Assembly (NCBI GenBank): GCA_964106915.2
Contig: OZ066914.1
Origin: Podarcis gaigeae
Lineage: Eukaryota
Strand: one strand, 5' to 3'
Length of the DNA stretch: 64,000 bases
Shown here: positions 29,426 to 38,400 of the stretch, one piece after another
How the letters are laid out: each line of letters starts with the position of its first letter
How positions within the stretch are numbered: the first letter of the stretch is position 1
Program-made: the position numbers

Positions 29426-32400
29426 TAAGGTCTTGGAACAGCTAACCTACTGATGTGGAACTACGGCTGGAATGTGAACAATTTAATTATGGCCTATTAA
29501 ATCAAGACAAAAGGCAACTGTTTTGCTGTTGACAATTGTTTTGCTGTCACTGAAGCTTAACATCATGTGGATGTTCATGGCATTGTGGACAAAATGGCAC
29601 CTTATATGGTGGTTTACCTTAAGTAACCGTTGAAATCAAGCACATGAGATGAATATCACCTGCATGGATGAAGCACATTTTCTGGATCTGTTTCAGTCAG
29701 GCTTCACAATAATGTAGTTCCTATGGTGAAAAGTCCATTTCTGGAGATCGACAGGGCCCTAACTTGTCCTCAGTACATTAGATCATCTGTATGAATATTC
29801 TGGAGGAATATTACAGGGAACCAGGCAGAGGGCCTTCTTGGTAGTGGCACCCACCCTGTGGAACACCCTCCCATCAGATGTCAAGCAGAAAAGTAACTAT
29901 ACAACCTTTAGAAGACATCTGAAGGCAGCCCTGTATAGGGAAGTTTTTGATGTTTTATTCCGTTTCTGTATATGCTATATGGGCAGGGTACAAATAAAAT
30001 CATTATTATTATTAGTGGTCTGGTTGGGCATTAATAACCTGAAGTTGAATCAATACAAGAGCGAAACTATGATAGCAGGCTGCTATTTAATAGGGTTTTT
30101 TTGCCTGTTAAGGATGTGGTCAACTCCTGTGGTCACAATTGTTTGCAGCAGCCACCAGGAGTGTTTTTATCCTCTCATCACTTACATAACCAAGATTCTG
30201 TTGGCTATACTCCTTCCCGGAAATAAATACTGGTGACCTCATGGATCGACGACTGCCATGTTTTCAGTGTAAATCTGTCCTTTACAACTGTTTGAAAGCT
30301 TCAACTAAAATAGAATGCAGCTGGAAGGGACCCTGAGGGTCATCTAGTCCAACTCCCTGCAATGCAGGAATCTTAACTAAAGCATCCATGACAGATGGCC
30401 ATCCAACCTCTGCTTAAAAACGTCCAAAGGAAGGAGAGTCCACCACCTTCTGAAGTCTGCTCCACTGTTGAATAGCTCTTACCACCAGGAAATTCTTCCT
30501 GATGTTTAGTCCTTGTATCTTGAAGTGAGTGAAGGATGTGAAAAGCAAACCTTAGCTTTAATTAACAAGGCATATAAAGCTTTGGGCTAAGGAATCGCCT
30601 ATTCGGCCAAATTCTGACAGCTGCAGAGCTCACTACAGTGGAACATTGGGTTAAGAACTCCATTCGTTCTGGAGGTCCGTTCTTACCCTGAAACTGTTCT
30701 TAACCTGAGGTACCACTTTAGCTAATGGGGCCTCCTGCCGCCGGGGCACGATTTCTGTTCTCATCCTGAAGTAAAGTTCTTAACCTGAGGTACTGTTTCT
30801 GGGTCAGCGGAGTCTGTAACCTGAGGTACGACTATTGTGTCCATGAACTCAAGAAGACAAATTATTACGTTACAATTTGGAAGGGCAAACAGGTTCAAGC
30901 ACCTCGCAAGCAAACAAGGGCTAATCCCCTGCCCAAACTCGTTTTCTTTCACATGGAGCTGGCAGGCAGTATCGGTTCTCAGGAGACGGGCAGCTCCCTC
31001 TCAAAGTGTGTCCCCCGCCAGCGAGTTAGGAAATACATTTCCCAGAAGCCCTAGCGACACCGCTTCCTTTTGTGGGCAGCTTGCAAAGACCCGCTTGACT
31101 TTAGGCTGGGAGCAAAAGTTACCGGGCGCGCGGGTTTTTCCTTTTTCTAAAAGCATTGCTCGAAGGACAACTGCCGGCGCGTTGGGGAAGAGGCTACTCC
31201 CTCCGACAAGGCAGACCCGATGGCGGCGGCGGCGGCGAGGATCCTGGTCTTGCCCTCTCCCCGCTGCCTGTGGGACGAGCCGGTCCAAGTGAAAGTCGAG
31301 GGTCTGGGGCCGCTGCAGGAGGTGACGCTGCGAGCATCCTTGGTGGACGAGAGCTGCGAGCTTTTCCAATCGCTCGCCTACTACCGGGCGGGCAGCAGCG
31401 GCGAGCTGGACCTCAGCCGCTCGGCGTCGCTGGGCGGCAGCTACTCCGGAGTGGAGCCCATGGGGTTGCTGTGGTCGCTGGCATCCCAGACGCCCTTCAA
31501 GCGCCTGGCCAAGAGGGACGTCCTCAGCCCTTTCCGCGTCACCTACGAGGTGCTCGACGGGCGCGGAGTCTCCGGGCGGCTCCTCGGCGAGTGCTGCAGC
31601 GAGAGGAGCTTTCTGGCCGACGGCGTGGAGAGGATCCCGGTGCGAGAAGGCAGGCTCCGAGCCACGCTCTTCCTGCCACCCGGTGAGCTTCATTCATCCC
31701 CCGCCCCCCCAGGGTCAAGAGGTTGCCACGCTCCTCGGATGAGCATTGAATGGCTCACCTCGGAAGCGCGGGCACTGCCCTTCCTGCCCATACATAATCG
31801 ACGGAGAGAGCCTCGACCAGCTTCGGGAGTTCATAGGATGGTTGAGTTGGATCCCAAAGGTCATGCAGTCCAACCCCCTGCAATACACTAATTCTGCCCA
31901 CAGCCGCCTCTAGGTGGGCTCGAACCAACAACCTTCTGGTTAACAGTCAGATGCACTAACCCACTGTGCCACCCTATCTTGTGGCTTTGAACTTCTTTCC
32001 CAGTTGTTGCGAGGGTGGTGGGGAGGGCTTTTTCTCCTTCCGGGTGACTCCCATCAGACCCAGTCTCATTAGCCAATGGAAAAGGGGTGATGGGAGCTGG
32101 CTGACTGCCAAGTTCCAGGGTTCCTAATCTCTGTTCTACCCAATAGATTTATTAAATTTTATTTGGGCATTTATAGCCCACAGCTCTATGATAAGTTCAA
32201 GGCAGCTTATAAAGAAGAAGAACTCACAGCAGAAAAATAAAATGGAGCTGAACAAACCAATAGTGCCATAAACAAATCACCATGAAAATTGCATCGCTGT
32301 CAACAGCAGCAGTCTAAAAGCCTTCACTAAAAACAAGTTATGGCAAGAATAATTGCCCCCACCAGTGACACTAATAATGGCAGTGGGACAGCGAGGAGAG

Positions 32401-35400: not shown

Positions 35401-38400
35401 TCTCCATAGTGTGCTACATTTTGTATATTCATAAAGACTTTTGTGGGAAAAGATTGAAGAACTGTAGTGGTACAGTCTACTCTCCCAGCATAGGACTCTG
35501 CTTGTGTCAACCACACCTTAATGTCAATACATGTATCTTAAGGGAAATGAGCACCCATTCAAAAAAAATAAGATGTGAGAAAAAGAATGGCATTTCTTAC
35601 TCTGAAGAGTCACAAATAAGGTGGAGCTTGGGATGTGCATATAATATCTCACTAGCTCTTTGGCACCAGTCATTTTCTTTAATCAAAAAAAGAAGGAAGT
35701 TAGGAGGGTAACTAACACAGCAGAATACTTGGATTCCTGCCCATCGCTACCGCCTCTCATCTGTGCAATGGACATTCTAATGCCTAAGGTAAGATTATTC
35801 AAATATTTTAACTCTTTACTAGTGCTGGACATGATTTTCCTTACTGCAGAGGAAACACAGTACTTGACAAGCTGAATTTCCACAACACGTAAGTGGCCAT
35901 GTAAGATTTTTAGTGTAGCAGATTGAGGGGTGTGTATAACCCCCCCCCCAAAAAAAAAACCACCCCAGAAGCTTTTCTTTTGGGAATTATAGGGAAAGAA
36001 CTACCTAAATTGTATGGAAATTTATTTACGTATGCTACTACAGCAGCAAGAATGTTACTTGCCCCAAAATGGAAAGAAGCAGAAGTCCCAGCAAATGAAG
36101 AATGGATACAAAAACTTATGGAATATGCAGAAATGGCAAAACTTGCCGGAAGAATAAGAAATCAAGATAACAAACTTTTTATAAAGGAATGGAAAATGTT
36201 TATTGAATATTTACAGATAAATTGTAAATAGATGAAAACATTAGCAGGATTATTGTAACAACCTGCAGTTTTATAAGAGTATATATTTACAGTAGATAAT
36301 TAAATGAGAAAGTTAAATGAATTTGAATATGTAGAAGATATTAAGGAACCACAGAAAGAGGGGAAAGGAAGTCAAGTTTTGAAATTTTAAATGGATTGTA
36401 AAACTAATGAAATGTATAAATAAAAAACTAAAGAAAAAGAAGATTCAGAAACAAGTAAGGGCACCTGACTTTAGAAGAGATGAATTAATTTAAATATATT
36501 TTCAAGAGAGTGATATTAGAATATATAATTGTTGATCTAAATGCCATCAAACGCTGCCCAGTATTAATGAAGTCACAAAATATTTCTCATGATCAAAAGT
36601 CCAAATTTAGTGAAATGTAGAACAGCAAGACCATATGGACGGCAATCTTCTTACCAATGCTCTTTATTTTTTTTTTTATAATAATTTTTATTAAGGTTTT
36701 CCAAATTAAGACAAATCAAAACAAATTAAATCCAATCTATAAACTTTTTGCCAATAACTAGGACTTCCCCTCCCTACCCCCTCTTGTGTTCCAAATCTTC
36801 CAAATAAGCAATTAAATTCAACAAGTTCTTATCCCCAAATTACACTCATCATCAATAACCCAATTTATCCAAATTCCCATCCCCTAAGATCGATCTATAC
36901 CCTTCCACGAGTTTCCCCCTTTCAAACATGGTACAGATGGAAATAAGATAAATATGAATAGTGATTTTACAGCCTTTGGATTCCAATTTTCCCTCCCCTC
37001 TTTCCCCTTTGCGTTTCACCTATCCCTCTACTTCTAATATCTTCCTGGAGTTCCCACATTACACTATGTCCCTCAGGTTCTTTGCCAGTCTTTGATTACG
37101 GATGTCCAATCGTAGAAGGAGTCTATCAAAAAAGGGGCCCATTTCTTCTATCCAGGTTTTTATATCCAGGAGTAAAAACTCCAATTTTGTATCCATAAGC
37201 TTGTCAAACCTGAATATCCCAAATGTTCCCCCAGTTCTGTCCAGTTCTTGTTATTTCCTTGTTCTTGTCAATCATTCTCCTCCTTTTTATTTCTCTGTTC
37301 TCCCACAGAAATGTTCTTTTTCCAAAAGTTTCTAGTGTCTCTGCAGAGGCTTGTTACTCATGGAGCAAAGCATTGCATCATGTTCCTTTCATTTTCCAAC
37401 AAATAGTTCCATTGTTTCCTGTAGTGTGTAGACCTCTGTAGACAAAATAATGTTCCATTCCTGCAGTTTCCCAGGAGATTAAAAGTTCCATTCAACTGTT
37501 CAAGTTTCCTGTCAAAAACACATGCAATATCCCTTGGCTCCTCTAGGTGGATTACAGTAGCAAAGTTCCCTTCCAGAATCACATCCACCAGTCCAAGTAG
37601 CTTGTTAACCGATATTTAAAACAATTTATGTTCAATTTATAACAAATATAACCGGCAAAGTCCTCATAACAAAATCTCTATTTTAATCTTCCTTTTTGAC
37701 AGCTCTTTGACAGCTGTCAAAACCTCCATCGCTTTTCTCCAGGCAGTTTCACGAATCGCTCCAGGGATTCCGGGGGGGATTGCTTTTTTTAAAAAAAAAC
37801 AATTCCACTTTTCTCCTCCAGCTCAATCTTATAATTTTCCCTCGCGAAGTTGCTGATTCGGCAAGATAAGGTTACACTCGATCTTAGTTGTCCAGTCCTT
37901 TGTTTTGGCTCTTCTACAATTTAGGGGTGGGCTGACTTCCTTTTTTCCGCCTCCCCCGTTCGCTCCGAATTTTAAAAATTTATCCCTTTTTTTTTTTAGT
38001 CCATGTGATGGGATAATGAGCTGCTTGTGCGTAAAAGCTTGATCCCGCTGGGGTTTGGCCGGTCATCCAAACCCAGGCACTAACGGAGCCCCCAAAAGCA
38101 TGACTCCGTCAGTCGCTGGTAGAATCTGACAGTGGGCGTCTACGGAACTTACGCCAACATAAAAGCTGTTTGACGGACATGCGCTTTCGTGACTCTCTGC
38201 GTGACAGTTTCCGGCGAAGGGAGGGAATTCCTAAAGGGGGTCTAGTTACCTCTTCACTATTCTCACTAGAAGCGTCTGAGAGCCTCCCCTCCGCTGTAAC
38301 TCCTGCACTCCCCCTGCTGGTTCCTGCTTCTGCTGCAGAGTCTCTCCTACTCTGCTGGAGCCTGTCCAGCACCTCTAACTCCGATGGCAGTTCCCTGACA

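What the first reader, a model, noticed from the sequence alone, without database searches (positions are those of the whole stretch)
29428..35788. A type-I acyl-CoA thioesterase gene sits inside the JMJD7-PLA2G4B read-through interval
Seen: an intact, intron-containing ACOT with its own CpG island starts 1.8 kb after the JMJD7 stop and ends ~2 kb before the predicted PLA2G4 exon 1, all on the same strand. Established: in human, MAPKBP1-JMJD7-PLA2G4B are adjacent and give the JMJD7-PLA2G4B fusion, while type-I ACOTs cluster on a different chromosome. Inference: either a DNA-level relocation into this locus in reptiles or an ancestral gene lost in mammals. It places two free-fatty-acid-releasing enzymes side by side and its promoter and poly(A) site probably interrupt the read-through.
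Basis: partly seen in the sequence, partly recalled or inferred. Interest (0 to 1): 0.7.

Follow-up and report, generated by a model that had tools for sequence, protein, structure and literature searches.

The report
Acyl-CoA thioesterase gene between JMJD7 and PLA2G4B
An intact fat-metabolism gene (a type-I acyl-CoA thioesterase) really does sit between JMJD7 and PLA2G4B in this lizard-like genome, but the same arrangement is seen in other lizards and in birds, and the gene belongs to an old tetrapod branch of the family that was not found in any mammal sampled.

Summary
A three-exon, 421-codon type-I ACOT gene lies on the + strand (CDS 31220-31682, 32490-32692, 33205-33804). It has GT-AG introns, its own CpG island and an intact Ser/Asp/His triad. 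It starts 1,792 bp after the JMJD7 stop.

The arrangement is not reptile-specific. Public fused gene models join JMJD7, this ACOT and PLA2G4B in Anolis and Lerista. They join JMJD7 to the ACOT in a pheasant, and the ACOT to PLA2G4B in a wagtail.

Trees split tetrapod type-I ACOTs into two old lineages:
- The window's lineage ("J-type") holds amphibians, turtles, birds and squamates, and no mammal sampled.
- The RIOX1/HEATR4-linked cluster lineage holds the mammalian ACOTs.

So "ancestral paralogue lost in mammals" is supported and "relocation in reptiles" is not. Amphibian exon-1 homogenisation hints that the gene left the cluster before birds and lizards split.

The claim that the gene interrupts read-through is untested, and splice phases would allow in-frame bridging. 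The gene is annotated in public databases but I found no paper on the arrangement. Interest is modest.

The parts
22046..29428 (+). JMJD7 coding exons. The penultimate exon is 27078-27237 and ends in phase 1. The last exon is 29337-29428 with the stop at 29426-29428. A probable first exon lies in the CpG island at 19501-20500.
   Evidence: tblastn of the Anolis model P0008 gives 7 collinear HSPs at 71-96% identity. Pfam Cupin_8 matches two exons. PDB JMJD7 entries 4qu2 and 5nfn match at E=6e-28. Splice sites were read.
30634..30749 (.). Copy of a SINE-like interspersed repeat just upstream of the ACOT CpG island.
   Evidence: Repeat family D2/I5 has other copies at 28804-29021 and 47532-47766, and inverted copies at 59226-59460 and 63758-64000.
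30801..32050 (.). CpG island over the ACOT 5' end and exon 1.
   Evidence: GC 0.60 and CpG o/e 0.77, against a window-wide o/e of 0.34.
31220..31682 (+). ACOT exon 1 coding part: 154 codons plus 1 base, encoding the N-terminal beta-sandwich domain.
   Evidence: PF04775 at E=2.3e-40. PDB 3hlk at E=4.7e-47. 98% identical to Zootoca P0001. An upstream in-frame stop was found.
31913..31971 (-). tRNA-like fragment in ACOT intron 1, probably the head of a tRNA-derived SINE.
   Evidence: Rfam RF00005 at 37.3 bits covering model positions 8-63 of 71. ARAGORN called no tRNA gene there.
32490..32692 (+). ACOT exon 2: 203 nt, entering in phase 1 and leaving in phase 0.
   Evidence: PDB 3k2i residues 155-218 at E=2.2e-21. 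No Pfam family at E<=0.01. 90% identical to P0001.
33205..33804 (+). ACOT exon 3: 199 codons plus TAG. It encodes the alpha/beta-hydrolase domain, with Ser12, Asp107 and His140 (exon numbering) and the C-terminus -KSNL.
   Evidence: PF08840 at E=5.3e-54. PDB 3hlk at E=1.1e-46, with the triad motifs aligned. Triad columns were counted.
34737..34742 (+). First canonical AATAAA after the ACOT stop, implying a 3' UTR of about 0.95 kb.
   Evidence: Pattern scan. An ATTAAA at 34617 precedes it. No transcript evidence.
35767..35788 (+). Not verified.
   Evidence: Sequence read. BLASTP found no match. Low-stringency tblastn gave 9/20 identities at E=1.0, in the right order. There is no CpG island here (o/e 0.20).
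38004..43488 (-). Neighbour, not part of the gene: a complete Ty3/gypsy-type (chromodomain-bearing) LTR retrotransposon, antisense to the three genes. LTRs are at 38004-38400 and 43092-43488. The gag-like ORF is 42035-43063 and the pol-like ORF is 38109-42035.
   Evidence: The LTRs are 397/397 identical, end in TG..CA and are flanked by a 5-bp duplication. Pfam finds PR, RT, RNase H, integrase and chromo domains, plus gag and a zinc knuckle. No stop or frameshift lies inside either ORF as delimited.
43489..43800 (.). CpG-rich stretch just outside the element and about 0.9 kb upstream of the first verified PLA2G4B exon. It may be PLA2G4B's own promoter island.
   Evidence: GC 0.60 and CpG o/e 0.90. 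Not followed up.
44685..63351 (+). PLA2G4B-like coding exons. The first verified exon is 44685-44757, entering in phase 0.
   Evidence: 15 collinear tblastn HSPs to P0008 residues 781-1561. Pfam C2 and PLA2_B match individual exons. The acceptor and donor were read.

Best explanation
The interval holds a functional-looking single-copy type-I acyl-CoA thioesterase gene.

**Shown**
- The gene has three exons and 421 codons. It encodes an N-terminal BAAT/ACOT beta-sandwich domain and a C-terminal alpha/beta-hydrolase domain.
- The Ser, Asp and His triad positions align with those of solved human ACOT2 and ACOT4.
- It has its own CpG island and no N-terminal presequence in exon 1.
- The order JMJD7, ACOT, PLA2G4B on one strand is shared with Anolis, Lerista, a pheasant and a wagtail.
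- The gene belongs to a lineage ("J-type", my label) found in amphibians, turtles, birds and squamates. It is separate from the lineage that holds the mammalian ACOT cluster and its bird, turtle, tuatara and salamander counterparts.

**Inferred**
- The enzyme hydrolyses acyl-CoA to free fatty acid and CoA through the Ser-His-Asp triad.
- Its conserved S-x-L end after a basic residue (-KSNL here) is a weak PTS1, so it is peroxisomal or dual cytosolic and peroxisomal.
- Mammals lost this paralogue.
- The gene left the HEATR4/RIOX1-linked ACOT cluster for the JMJD7-PLA2G4B interval by a DNA-level move, after amphibians diverged and before birds and lizards split.
For: **Gene anatomy and family.** Exon 1 hits PF04775 at 2.3e-40 and exon 3 hits PF08840 at 5.3e-54. 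All three exons hit PDB 3hlk and 3k2i collinearly.

**Triad.** Ser, Asp and His are present in 19 of 19 sauropsid and 12 of 12 amphibian J-type sequences.

**Single copy.** Zootoca P0001 gives only 3 tblastn HSPs in the window, at 98%, 90% and 90% identity.

**Synteny.**
- Anolis P0008 (1562 aa) carries Cupin_8, ACOT N and C domains, C2 and PLA2_B. It aligns collinearly to 22046-63324.
- Lerista P0124 carries Cupin_8, the ACOT N domain and PLA2_B.
- Chrysolophus P0032 joins the JMJD7 penultimate exon to ACOT exon 2.
- Motacilla P0033 joins the ACOT to cPLA2-beta.

**Two lineages.**
- In the exon-3 NJ tree (77 sequences, 199 columns, 200 bootstraps), the J clade has 32 members including the window and three synteny-anchored sequences, with bootstrap 97. 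The cluster clade has 20 members including 7 of 7 mammals, with bootstrap 96.
- Of 21 mammalian proteins retrieved, 0 match the J reference best, 11 match the cluster reference and 10 match BAAT.
- Duck P0121 fuses NO66/RIOX1 (429 bits to 4diq) with three cluster-type ACOT N domains.
- Caecilian P0125 fuses ACOT exons with HEATR4.
- In human the ACOT1 promoter lies in HEATR4 intron 1 (PMC8812507, passages).

**Relocation hint.** J-type and cluster-type paralogues are far more alike in exon 1 than in exon 3 in Ambystoma (87% v 40%) and Lissotriton (93% v 45%). In the caecilian, exon 1 is 149/149 identical. In three turtles the figures are 58-64% v 41-46%.

**PTS1.** C-termini are listed. -SNL is called a PTS1 for zebrafish Hacl1 (PMC8919083, passages).
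Against: - No transcript, protein or activity data exist for this gene in this genome.
- The synteny evidence rests on predicted fused gene models, not on genome maps. Those models may be annotation artefacts, although an artefactual fusion still needs neighbouring genes on one strand.
- The trees are neighbour-joining only. The exon-1 and exon-2 trees do not resolve the two lineages.
- Only the best 120 of 1,847 hits were listed. Absence from mammals and crocodilians, and absence of a cluster-type gene in squamates, is therefore not proven.
- The amphibian exon-1 pattern could also come from models that borrow a neighbour's exon.
- BAAT/ACNAT-named relatives also carry Ser at the nucleophile column (8 of 8). 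The triad therefore does not separate a hydrolase from an N-acyltransferase. Only clade membership does.
- Exon 2 alone hits no Pfam family.
Confidence: 0.8

Rival explanations
1. Reptile-specific relocation: the ACOT moved into the JMJD7-PLA2G4B interval within squamates or reptiles only.
For: Every squamate J-type sequence sampled clusters tightly with the window's gene. The arrangement is seen directly in this window and in the Anolis and Lerista models.
Against: Pheasant P0032 (JMJD7 joined to the ACOT) and wagtail P0033 (the ACOT joined to cPLA2-beta) show the same neighbours in birds. Both ACOT parts sit inside the sauropsid J clade, which has bootstrap 100.
Confidence: 0.04
2. Ancestral position: the J-type gene was already between JMJD7 and PLA2G4B in the tetrapod ancestor. 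Mammals deleted it in place and nothing was relocated.
For: The J lineage is as old as tetrapods (bootstrap 97), and sauropsids share the position. Nothing here shows an amphibian JMJD7-PLA2G4B interval without an ACOT.
Against: In salamanders and the caecilian, the exon 1 of the J-type and cluster-type paralogues is 87-100% identical while exon 3 is 40-45% identical. A caecilian model joins that shared exon 1 to a cluster-type exon 2 and to HEATR4. This is most simply read as tandem neighbours at the HEATR4 locus.
Confidence: 0.3
3. The ACOT exons are part of one larger read-through transcription unit running from JMJD7 through the ACOT to PLA2G4B. This unit would yield chimeric proteins, so the ACOT would not act as an insulator between its neighbours.
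For: Four fused models exist in four species. In this window the JMJD7 penultimate exon ends in phase 1 and ACOT exon 2 starts in phase 1, exactly the pheasant junction. ACOT exon 2 ends in phase 0 and PLA2G4B exon 44685 starts in phase 0. Bridging through exon 2 would therefore stay in frame, whereas a direct join from the JMJD7 penultimate exon to that PLA2G4B exon would not.
Against: The ACOT has its own CpG island, its own ATG preceded by an in-frame stop, and a canonical AATAAA 933 nt after its stop. Stand-alone models of 416-420 aa are the rule in 40+ species. Fused models are a common artefact for closely spaced genes. No RNA data were available.
Confidence: 0.15
4. [quoted passage not shown]
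For: The domain architecture is the same. BAAT/ACNAT-named relatives in the sample also have Ser, Asp and His at the triad columns (8 of 8).
Against: In both the exon-1 and exon-3 trees, the BAAT/ACNAT-named sequences form their own group outside the ACOT lineages. Squamates have separate BAAT-like genes that are 35-42% identical to exon 3. The best solved relatives are ACOT2 and ACOT4.
Confidence: 0.07
5. The gene is an assembly artefact or a decaying pseudogene.
For: None found.
Against: The reading frame is open across three exons with GT-AG introns. The triad is intact. The gene is 90-98% identical to the Zootoca protein. The same order is seen in four other species. No N is present in the window.
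Confidence: 0.02

Closest known systems
Mammalian type-I ACOT cluster (ACOT1/2/4/6 at human 14q24.3; solved structures 3hlk for ACOT2 and 3k2i for ACOT4)
   Same: Both share the two-domain architecture (PF04775 plus PF08840) and Ser/Asp/His at the aligned positions. Length is about 420 aa. Full-length similarity is strong: Zootoca stand-in P0001 scores 431 bits to 3hlk over 408 residues.
   Different: It is a different paralogue lineage (bootstraps 96 and 97). Exon 3 is only 40-47% identical to cluster-type proteins, whereas turtle and mammalian cluster types are 62-80% identical to each other. It is a singleton beside JMJD7 and PLA2G4B rather than a tandem cluster beside HEATR4/RIOX1. Its C-terminus is -S-x-L.
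Sauropsid 'acyl-coenzyme A thioesterase 1-like' database entries (for example Zootoca vivipara P0001, and the ACOT part of Anolis LOC100562400, P0008)
   Same: These are orthologues. P0001 is 98%, 90% and 90% identical over the three exons. They share the same C-terminal S-x-L and, where fused models show it, the same neighbours.
   Different: Nothing substantive differs. The window has one more alanine codon in the N-terminal alanine run than P0001.
BAAT / ACNAT acyltransferases
   Same: Same Pfam domains and same triad columns.
   Different: They form a separate group in the trees and are 35-42% identical to exon 3.
Human JMJD7-PLA2G4B read-through locus
   Same: JMJD7 and PLA2G4B are neighbours on one strand, downstream of a MAPKBP1-like 3' end. 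The read-through is described in PMC5341748 (abstract and one passage seen).
   Different: Here a complete ACOT gene and a 5.5-kb LTR retrotransposon lie between the two genes. That the human interval lacks an ACOT is recalled, and is consistent with the 14q24.3 location of all human type-I ACOTs (PMC8812507, passages). I did not inspect human sequence.

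Membership tests
Type-I acyl-CoA thioesterase (ACOT, alpha/beta-hydrolase type) | N-terminal BAAT/ACOT beta-sandwich domain (PF04775) | tested here: met
   Exon 1 matches at E=2.3e-40 and 137.8 bits over profile positions 1-126 of 126.
Type-I acyl-CoA thioesterase (ACOT, alpha/beta-hydrolase type) | C-terminal alpha/beta-hydrolase domain (PF08840) | tested here: met
   Exon 3 matches at E=5.3e-54 over profile positions 22-209 of 210. The first ~21 profile positions would fall in exon 2, which alone hit no Pfam family but matches PDB ACOT4 residues 155-218 at E=2.2e-21.
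Type-I acyl-CoA thioesterase (ACOT, alpha/beta-hydrolase type) | Catalytic Ser-Asp-His triad | tested here: met
   The GLSKG, GQDDKNW and AGH motifs of exon 3 align with GISKG, GQDDHNW and TGH of 3hlk. The triad is invariant in 31 of 31 J-type sequences. Which residues are catalytic in ACOT2 and ACOT4 is recalled, not taken from a call.
Type-I acyl-CoA thioesterase (ACOT, alpha/beta-hydrolase type) | Groups with ACOTs rather than with BAAT/ACNAT in a family tree | tested here: met
   Exon-3 and exon-1 NJ trees. Deep nodes between the ACOT lineages and fish genes are weakly supported (bootstrap 26-60).
Type-I acyl-CoA thioesterase (ACOT, alpha/beta-hydrolase type) | Acyl-CoA hydrolase activity | not testable with these tools
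   No biochemical data are available. A chicken gene called ACOT1L is detected in liver (PMC8566343, PMC8273700 and PMC12875106, passages only). I could not establish which lineage that gene belongs to.
Mammalian ACOT1/2/4/6 cluster lineage (HEATR4/RIOX1-linked) | Falls in the clade that holds the mammalian cluster genes | tested here: not met
   The window's exon 3 falls in the other clade (bootstrap 97), against bootstrap 96 for the cluster clade.
Mammalian ACOT1/2/4/6 cluster lineage (HEATR4/RIOX1-linked) | Tandem array next to HEATR4/RIOX1 | tested here: not met
   The window holds a single copy flanked by JMJD7 and PLA2G4B. HEATR4 and RIOX1 linkage is seen for cluster-type genes in caecilian P0125 and duck P0121.
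PTS1-bearing peroxisomal matrix proteins | C-terminal tripeptide of the S/A/C-K/R/H-L/M type, or an accepted variant | tested here: inconclusive
   The window ends in -KSNL. J-type orthologues end in S-x-L with a variable middle residue (N, K, R, H, Y, T, Q, S, C), usually after K or R. -SNL is called a PTS1 for zebrafish Hacl1 (PMC8919083, passages). No predictor or localisation data were available.

The most novel reading that the evidence does not exclude
The ancestral amniote locus was a three-gene unit of JMJD7, ACOT and PLA2G4B, with exon phases that let read-through transcripts stay in frame. The JMJD7 penultimate exon joins ACOT exon 2 in frame, and ACOT exon 2 joins the first C2-domain exon of PLA2G4B in frame. 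Sauropsids would therefore make JMJD7-ACOT and ACOT-cPLA2-beta chimeras. On this reading, the well-known mammalian JMJD7-PLA2G4B read-through is what remained after mammals lost the middle gene.
Probability: 0.12. Interest if true: 0.6.

Novelty: new member of a known kind. Interest (0 to 1): 0.33.

Why it matters
- Type-I ACOT biology is built almost entirely on the mammalian 14q24.3-type cluster. This gene represents a second tetrapod-wide lineage that the mammals sampled here lack, so its substrate range, location in the cell and physiological role are unstudied.
- It shows that the JMJD7-PLA2G4B adjacency, known in human for its read-through transcript, holds a third gene in birds and lizards. 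This gives the origin of that read-through a testable history.
- For annotators, it explains why several sauropsid gene models fuse two or three unrelated enzymes.
- It is not a new kind of system. The value is comparative: a gene-loss and gene-relocation case.

Tried and rejected
- **Whole-frame translations.** Sending 9.4-10 kb translations to Pfam to map the flanking genes failed because translations with stops are not accepted. I used stop-to-stop ORF listings, tblastn with stored proteins and exon-sized references instead.
- **Exhaustive representative search.** The search with P0001 (5,178 hits at E<=0.001, best 150 listed) returned only unnamed proteins clustered at 50%. It merges the lineages, so I did not use it.
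- **Cluster members.** Accession numbers, isoform lists and the members of the Zootoca cluster therefore stayed unseen.
- **Promoter scan.** The bacterial promoter and terminator scan of the ACOT 5' region found nothing and is not meaningful for a vertebrate gene.
- **Tandem-fused models.** Dissecting the models P0128, P0131, P0134 and P0137 for amphibian or fish adjacency gave no clear J-type v cluster-type assignment.
- **Exon-1 and exon-2 trees.** These do not separate the lineages. I read the exon-1 result as homogenisation in amphibians rather than as evidence against two lineages.
- **Ser v Cys at the nucleophile.** I rejected this as a way to tell thioesterase from acyltransferase after seeing Ser in 8 of 8 BAAT/ACNAT-named sequences.
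- **Literature.** None found a paper on an ACOT between JMJD7 and PLA2G4B. One search (HEATR4, ACOT1, RIOX1) found nothing, so RIOX1's position beside HEATR4 in human is recalled only. Supplementary files were not consulted.
- **Closed collections.** No vertebrate genome context could therefore be fetched.

Full report
**What is in the window**

The 64-kb window has no N. On the + strand it carries, in order:
- A MAPKBP1-like C-terminal exon at 14270-14605. It matches the WDR62/MABP1 coiled-coil family at 25.6 bits, below the curated cut-off of 28.2.
- JMJD7.
- A type-I ACOT.
- A PLA2G4B-like gene.

JMJD7 is shown by 7 collinear tblastn HSPs to the Anolis model P0008 (22046-29413). It also hits Pfam Cupin_8 and PDB JMJD7 at E=6e-28. 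Its last coding exon is 29337-29428.

**The ACOT gene**

Reading the sequence gives three coding exons: 31220-31682, 32490-32692 and 33205-33804. The introns are GT-AG, with phases 1 and 0. The total is 421 codons plus TAG.

The ATG is the first in frame after a stop 24 codons upstream. Exon 1 therefore encodes no presequence.

The joined model was not assembled or searched. The Zootoca protein P0001 served as the natural full-length stand-in.

| Exon | Pfam | PDB 3k2i, human ACOT4 |
|---|---|---|
| 1 | PF04775, E=2.3e-40 | residues 4-153, E=4e-44 |
| 2 | no family at E<=0.01 | residues 155-218, E=2e-21 |
| 3 | PF08840, E=5.3e-54 | residues 224-412, E=2e-44 |

The three exons hit the solved structure in order, which is what the splice model predicts. 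The nucleophile, acid and base motifs of exon 3 align with those of ACOT2.

A CpG island covers 30801-32050, with GC 0.60 and o/e 0.77 against 0.34 for the window. The first AATAAA lies 933 nt after the stop. P0001 finds only these three exons in the window, at 98%, 90% and 90% identity. The gene is therefore single-copy here, and the window comes from a lacertid-like squamate.

**The downstream side**

- BLASTP against P0008 found nothing there.
- A low-stringency tblastn gave 9/20 identities at E=1.0, though in the right order.
- There is no CpG island at that position.

The first verified PLA2G4B exon is 44685-44757. Fourteen further HSPs follow, reaching 63324.

Between 38004 and 43488, on the opposite strand, lies the virus-like stretch. 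It is a complete Ty3/gypsy-type LTR retrotransposon.
- Its 397-bp LTRs are identical at 397 of 397 positions and are flanked by a 5-bp duplication.
- Its gag-like ORF is 342 aa.
- Its pol-like ORF is 1308 aa, with protease, reverse transcriptase, RNase H, integrase and chromo domains.
- I saw no stop or frameshift inside either ORF.
- It is only described here.

Just outside its upper LTR, 43489-43800 is CpG-rich (o/e 0.90). This may be PLA2G4B's own promoter island.

**Is the arrangement special to reptiles?**

No. A search with exon 3 among longer proteins returned 128 hits at E<=1e-10 among 1,089 candidates. These included fused models. A second search for long proteins containing the Anolis ACOT part returned 8 hits among 8,000 candidates and added more.

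| Model | Species | Content |
|---|---|---|
| P0008 | Anolis carolinensis | JMJD7, ACOT and PLA2G4B; collinear with the window |
| P0124 | Lerista edwardsae | JMJD7, ACOT N domain and PLA2 |
| P0032 | Chrysolophus pictus | JMJD7 penultimate exon joined to ACOT exon 2 |
| P0033 | Motacilla alba | ACOT joined to cPLA2-beta |

Whether or not these fusions are real transcripts, they require the genes to be neighbours on one strand. The order therefore predates the bird-lizard split.

**Two ACOT lineages**

One search also returned two other fused models.
- Duck P0121 joins an NO66/RIOX1 orthologue (429 bits to 4diq) to three ACOT N domains.
- Caecilian P0125, annotated as a HEATR4 isoform, begins with ACOT exons.

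In human, the ACOT1 promoter lies in HEATR4 intron 1, and all type-I ACOTs are at 14q24.3 (PMC8812507, passages).

A search with P0001 gave 1,847 hits at E<=1e-20 among 7,999 candidates, of which the best 120 were listed. Turtles, birds and salamanders each showed two kinds of protein: about 58-72% and about 52% identical to P0001.

I built an NJ tree of the exon-3 region.
- It used 77 of 81 sequences, 199 columns and 200 bootstraps. The four dropped rows lack this region.
- The J clade has 32 members with bootstrap 97: 9 frogs, 2 salamander genes, the caecilian P0055, 3 turtles, 8 birds and 9 squamate rows including the window.
- The cluster clade has 20 members with bootstrap 96: 3 salamander genes, 7 mammals, 4 birds, tuatara and 5 turtles.
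- All three synteny-anchored ACOT parts that cover this region fall in the J clade.

Among the 21 mammalian proteins retrieved, 0 match a turtle J-type reference best, 11 match the cluster reference and 10 match BAAT. The duck's RIOX1-linked copy is closer to human ACOT2 (485 bits over 321 residues) than the J-type P0001 is (431 bits over 408 residues).

**History**

The duplication is at least as old as tetrapods, and the mammals sampled lack the J lineage.

A hint on position comes from per-exon identities between the two paralogues within one species.

| Species | Exon 1 | Exon 3 |
|---|---|---|
| Ambystoma | 87% | 40% |
| Lissotriton | 93% | 45% |
| Caecilian | 149/149 identical | not comparable |
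| Three turtles | 58-64% | 41-46% |

In the caecilian, the HEATR4-fused model uses the shared exon 1 with a cluster-like exon 2. Exon-1 homogenisation or sharing is what tandem neighbours show. I therefore infer two things:
- In amphibians the J-type gene sits in the HEATR4-linked cluster.
- It moved, introns included, to the JMJD7-PLA2G4B interval before birds and lizards diverged.

This step is inferred, not shown. The rival view, that the ancestral position was beside JMJD7, keeps about 0.3.

In several species the two paralogues are reported on contigs of the same length. Examples are Emydura (32,459,498), Ambystoma and Lissotriton. This is compatible with a move within one chromosome.

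**Function**

The enzyme is predicted to hydrolyse acyl-CoA through the Ser-His-Asp triad. The triad is invariant in 31 of 31 J-type sequences.

The triad does not by itself exclude acyltransferase activity, because BAAT/ACNAT-named relatives also carry Ser. Clade membership is what favours a thioesterase.

J-type proteins end in S-x-L, usually after K or R; here the end is -KSNL. -SNL is treated as a PTS1 for zebrafish Hacl1 (PMC8919083, passages). A peroxisomal or dual location is therefore likely but unproven.

**Read-through**

No RNA data could be consulted. The gene has its own island, ATG and poly(A) signal, which fits an independent unit.

- Four species have fused models.
- The JMJD7 penultimate exon ends in phase 1, matching ACOT exon 2's entry.
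- ACOT exon 2 leaves in phase 0, matching PLA2G4B exon 44685.

**Literature and limits**

None found a paper describing this arrangement. PMC8919083 notes that duplications and losses make the ACOT family complex across animals (passage).

Limits:
- Vertebrate genome context could not be fetched.
- Supplementary files were not seen.
- The absence of crocodilian J-type proteins, and of squamate cluster-type proteins, from the listed hits is not evidence of loss.

**Verdict**

The arrangement is sauropsid-wide and already visible in public annotation. Interest is modest.

Noticed in passing
window 38004-43488 (- strand): A complete Ty3/gypsy-type LTR retrotransposon with a chromodomain. Its 397-bp LTRs are identical, it has a 5-bp target duplication, and both long ORFs are open. 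It lies antisense between the ACOT and the first verified PLA2G4B exon, and looks like a very recent insertion. Described only.
   Followed up: partly
window 43489-43800: A CpG-rich stretch (GC 0.60, o/e 0.90) abuts the upper LTR, about 0.9 kb upstream of PLA2G4B exon 44685-44757.
   Followed up: no
window 28804-29021, 30634-30749, 47532-47766, 59226-59460 (inverted), 63758-64000 (inverted): A SINE-like interspersed repeat family of about 220-240 nt at 82-92% identity. One copy lies in the last JMJD7 intron and one just upstream of the ACOT CpG island.
   Followed up: partly
window 31913-31971 (- strand), ACOT intron 1: A partial tRNA match in Rfam (37.3 bits, model positions 8-63) with no ARAGORN call. 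It is probably the head of a tRNA-derived SINE.
   Followed up: no
window 33040-33115 and 34018-34092: By eye, a segment of about 75 nt in ACOT intron 2 recurs in the 3' UTR. A 15/26-nt tandem repeat sits at 32985-33039 next to the first copy. The repeat search at minimum length 90 did not list the pair.
   Followed up: no
proteins P0060/P0138, P0070/P0135, P0055/P0125, P0149/P0092: In salamanders, a caecilian and the basking shark, exon 1 of two ACOT paralogues is 87-100% identical while exon 3 is 40-54% identical. This points to gene conversion or shared first exons in tandem ACOT clusters.
   Followed up: partly
hit lists: No squamate cluster-type ACOT and no crocodilian ACOT of either lineage appear among the listed hits, although tuatara, turtles and birds have cluster-type genes. 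These may be lineage losses, or an effect of listing only the best 120 hits.
   Followed up: no
window 26553-26699 and 27427-27573: A 147-nt direct repeat (94% identical) flanks the JMJD7 penultimate exon on both sides.
   Followed up: no
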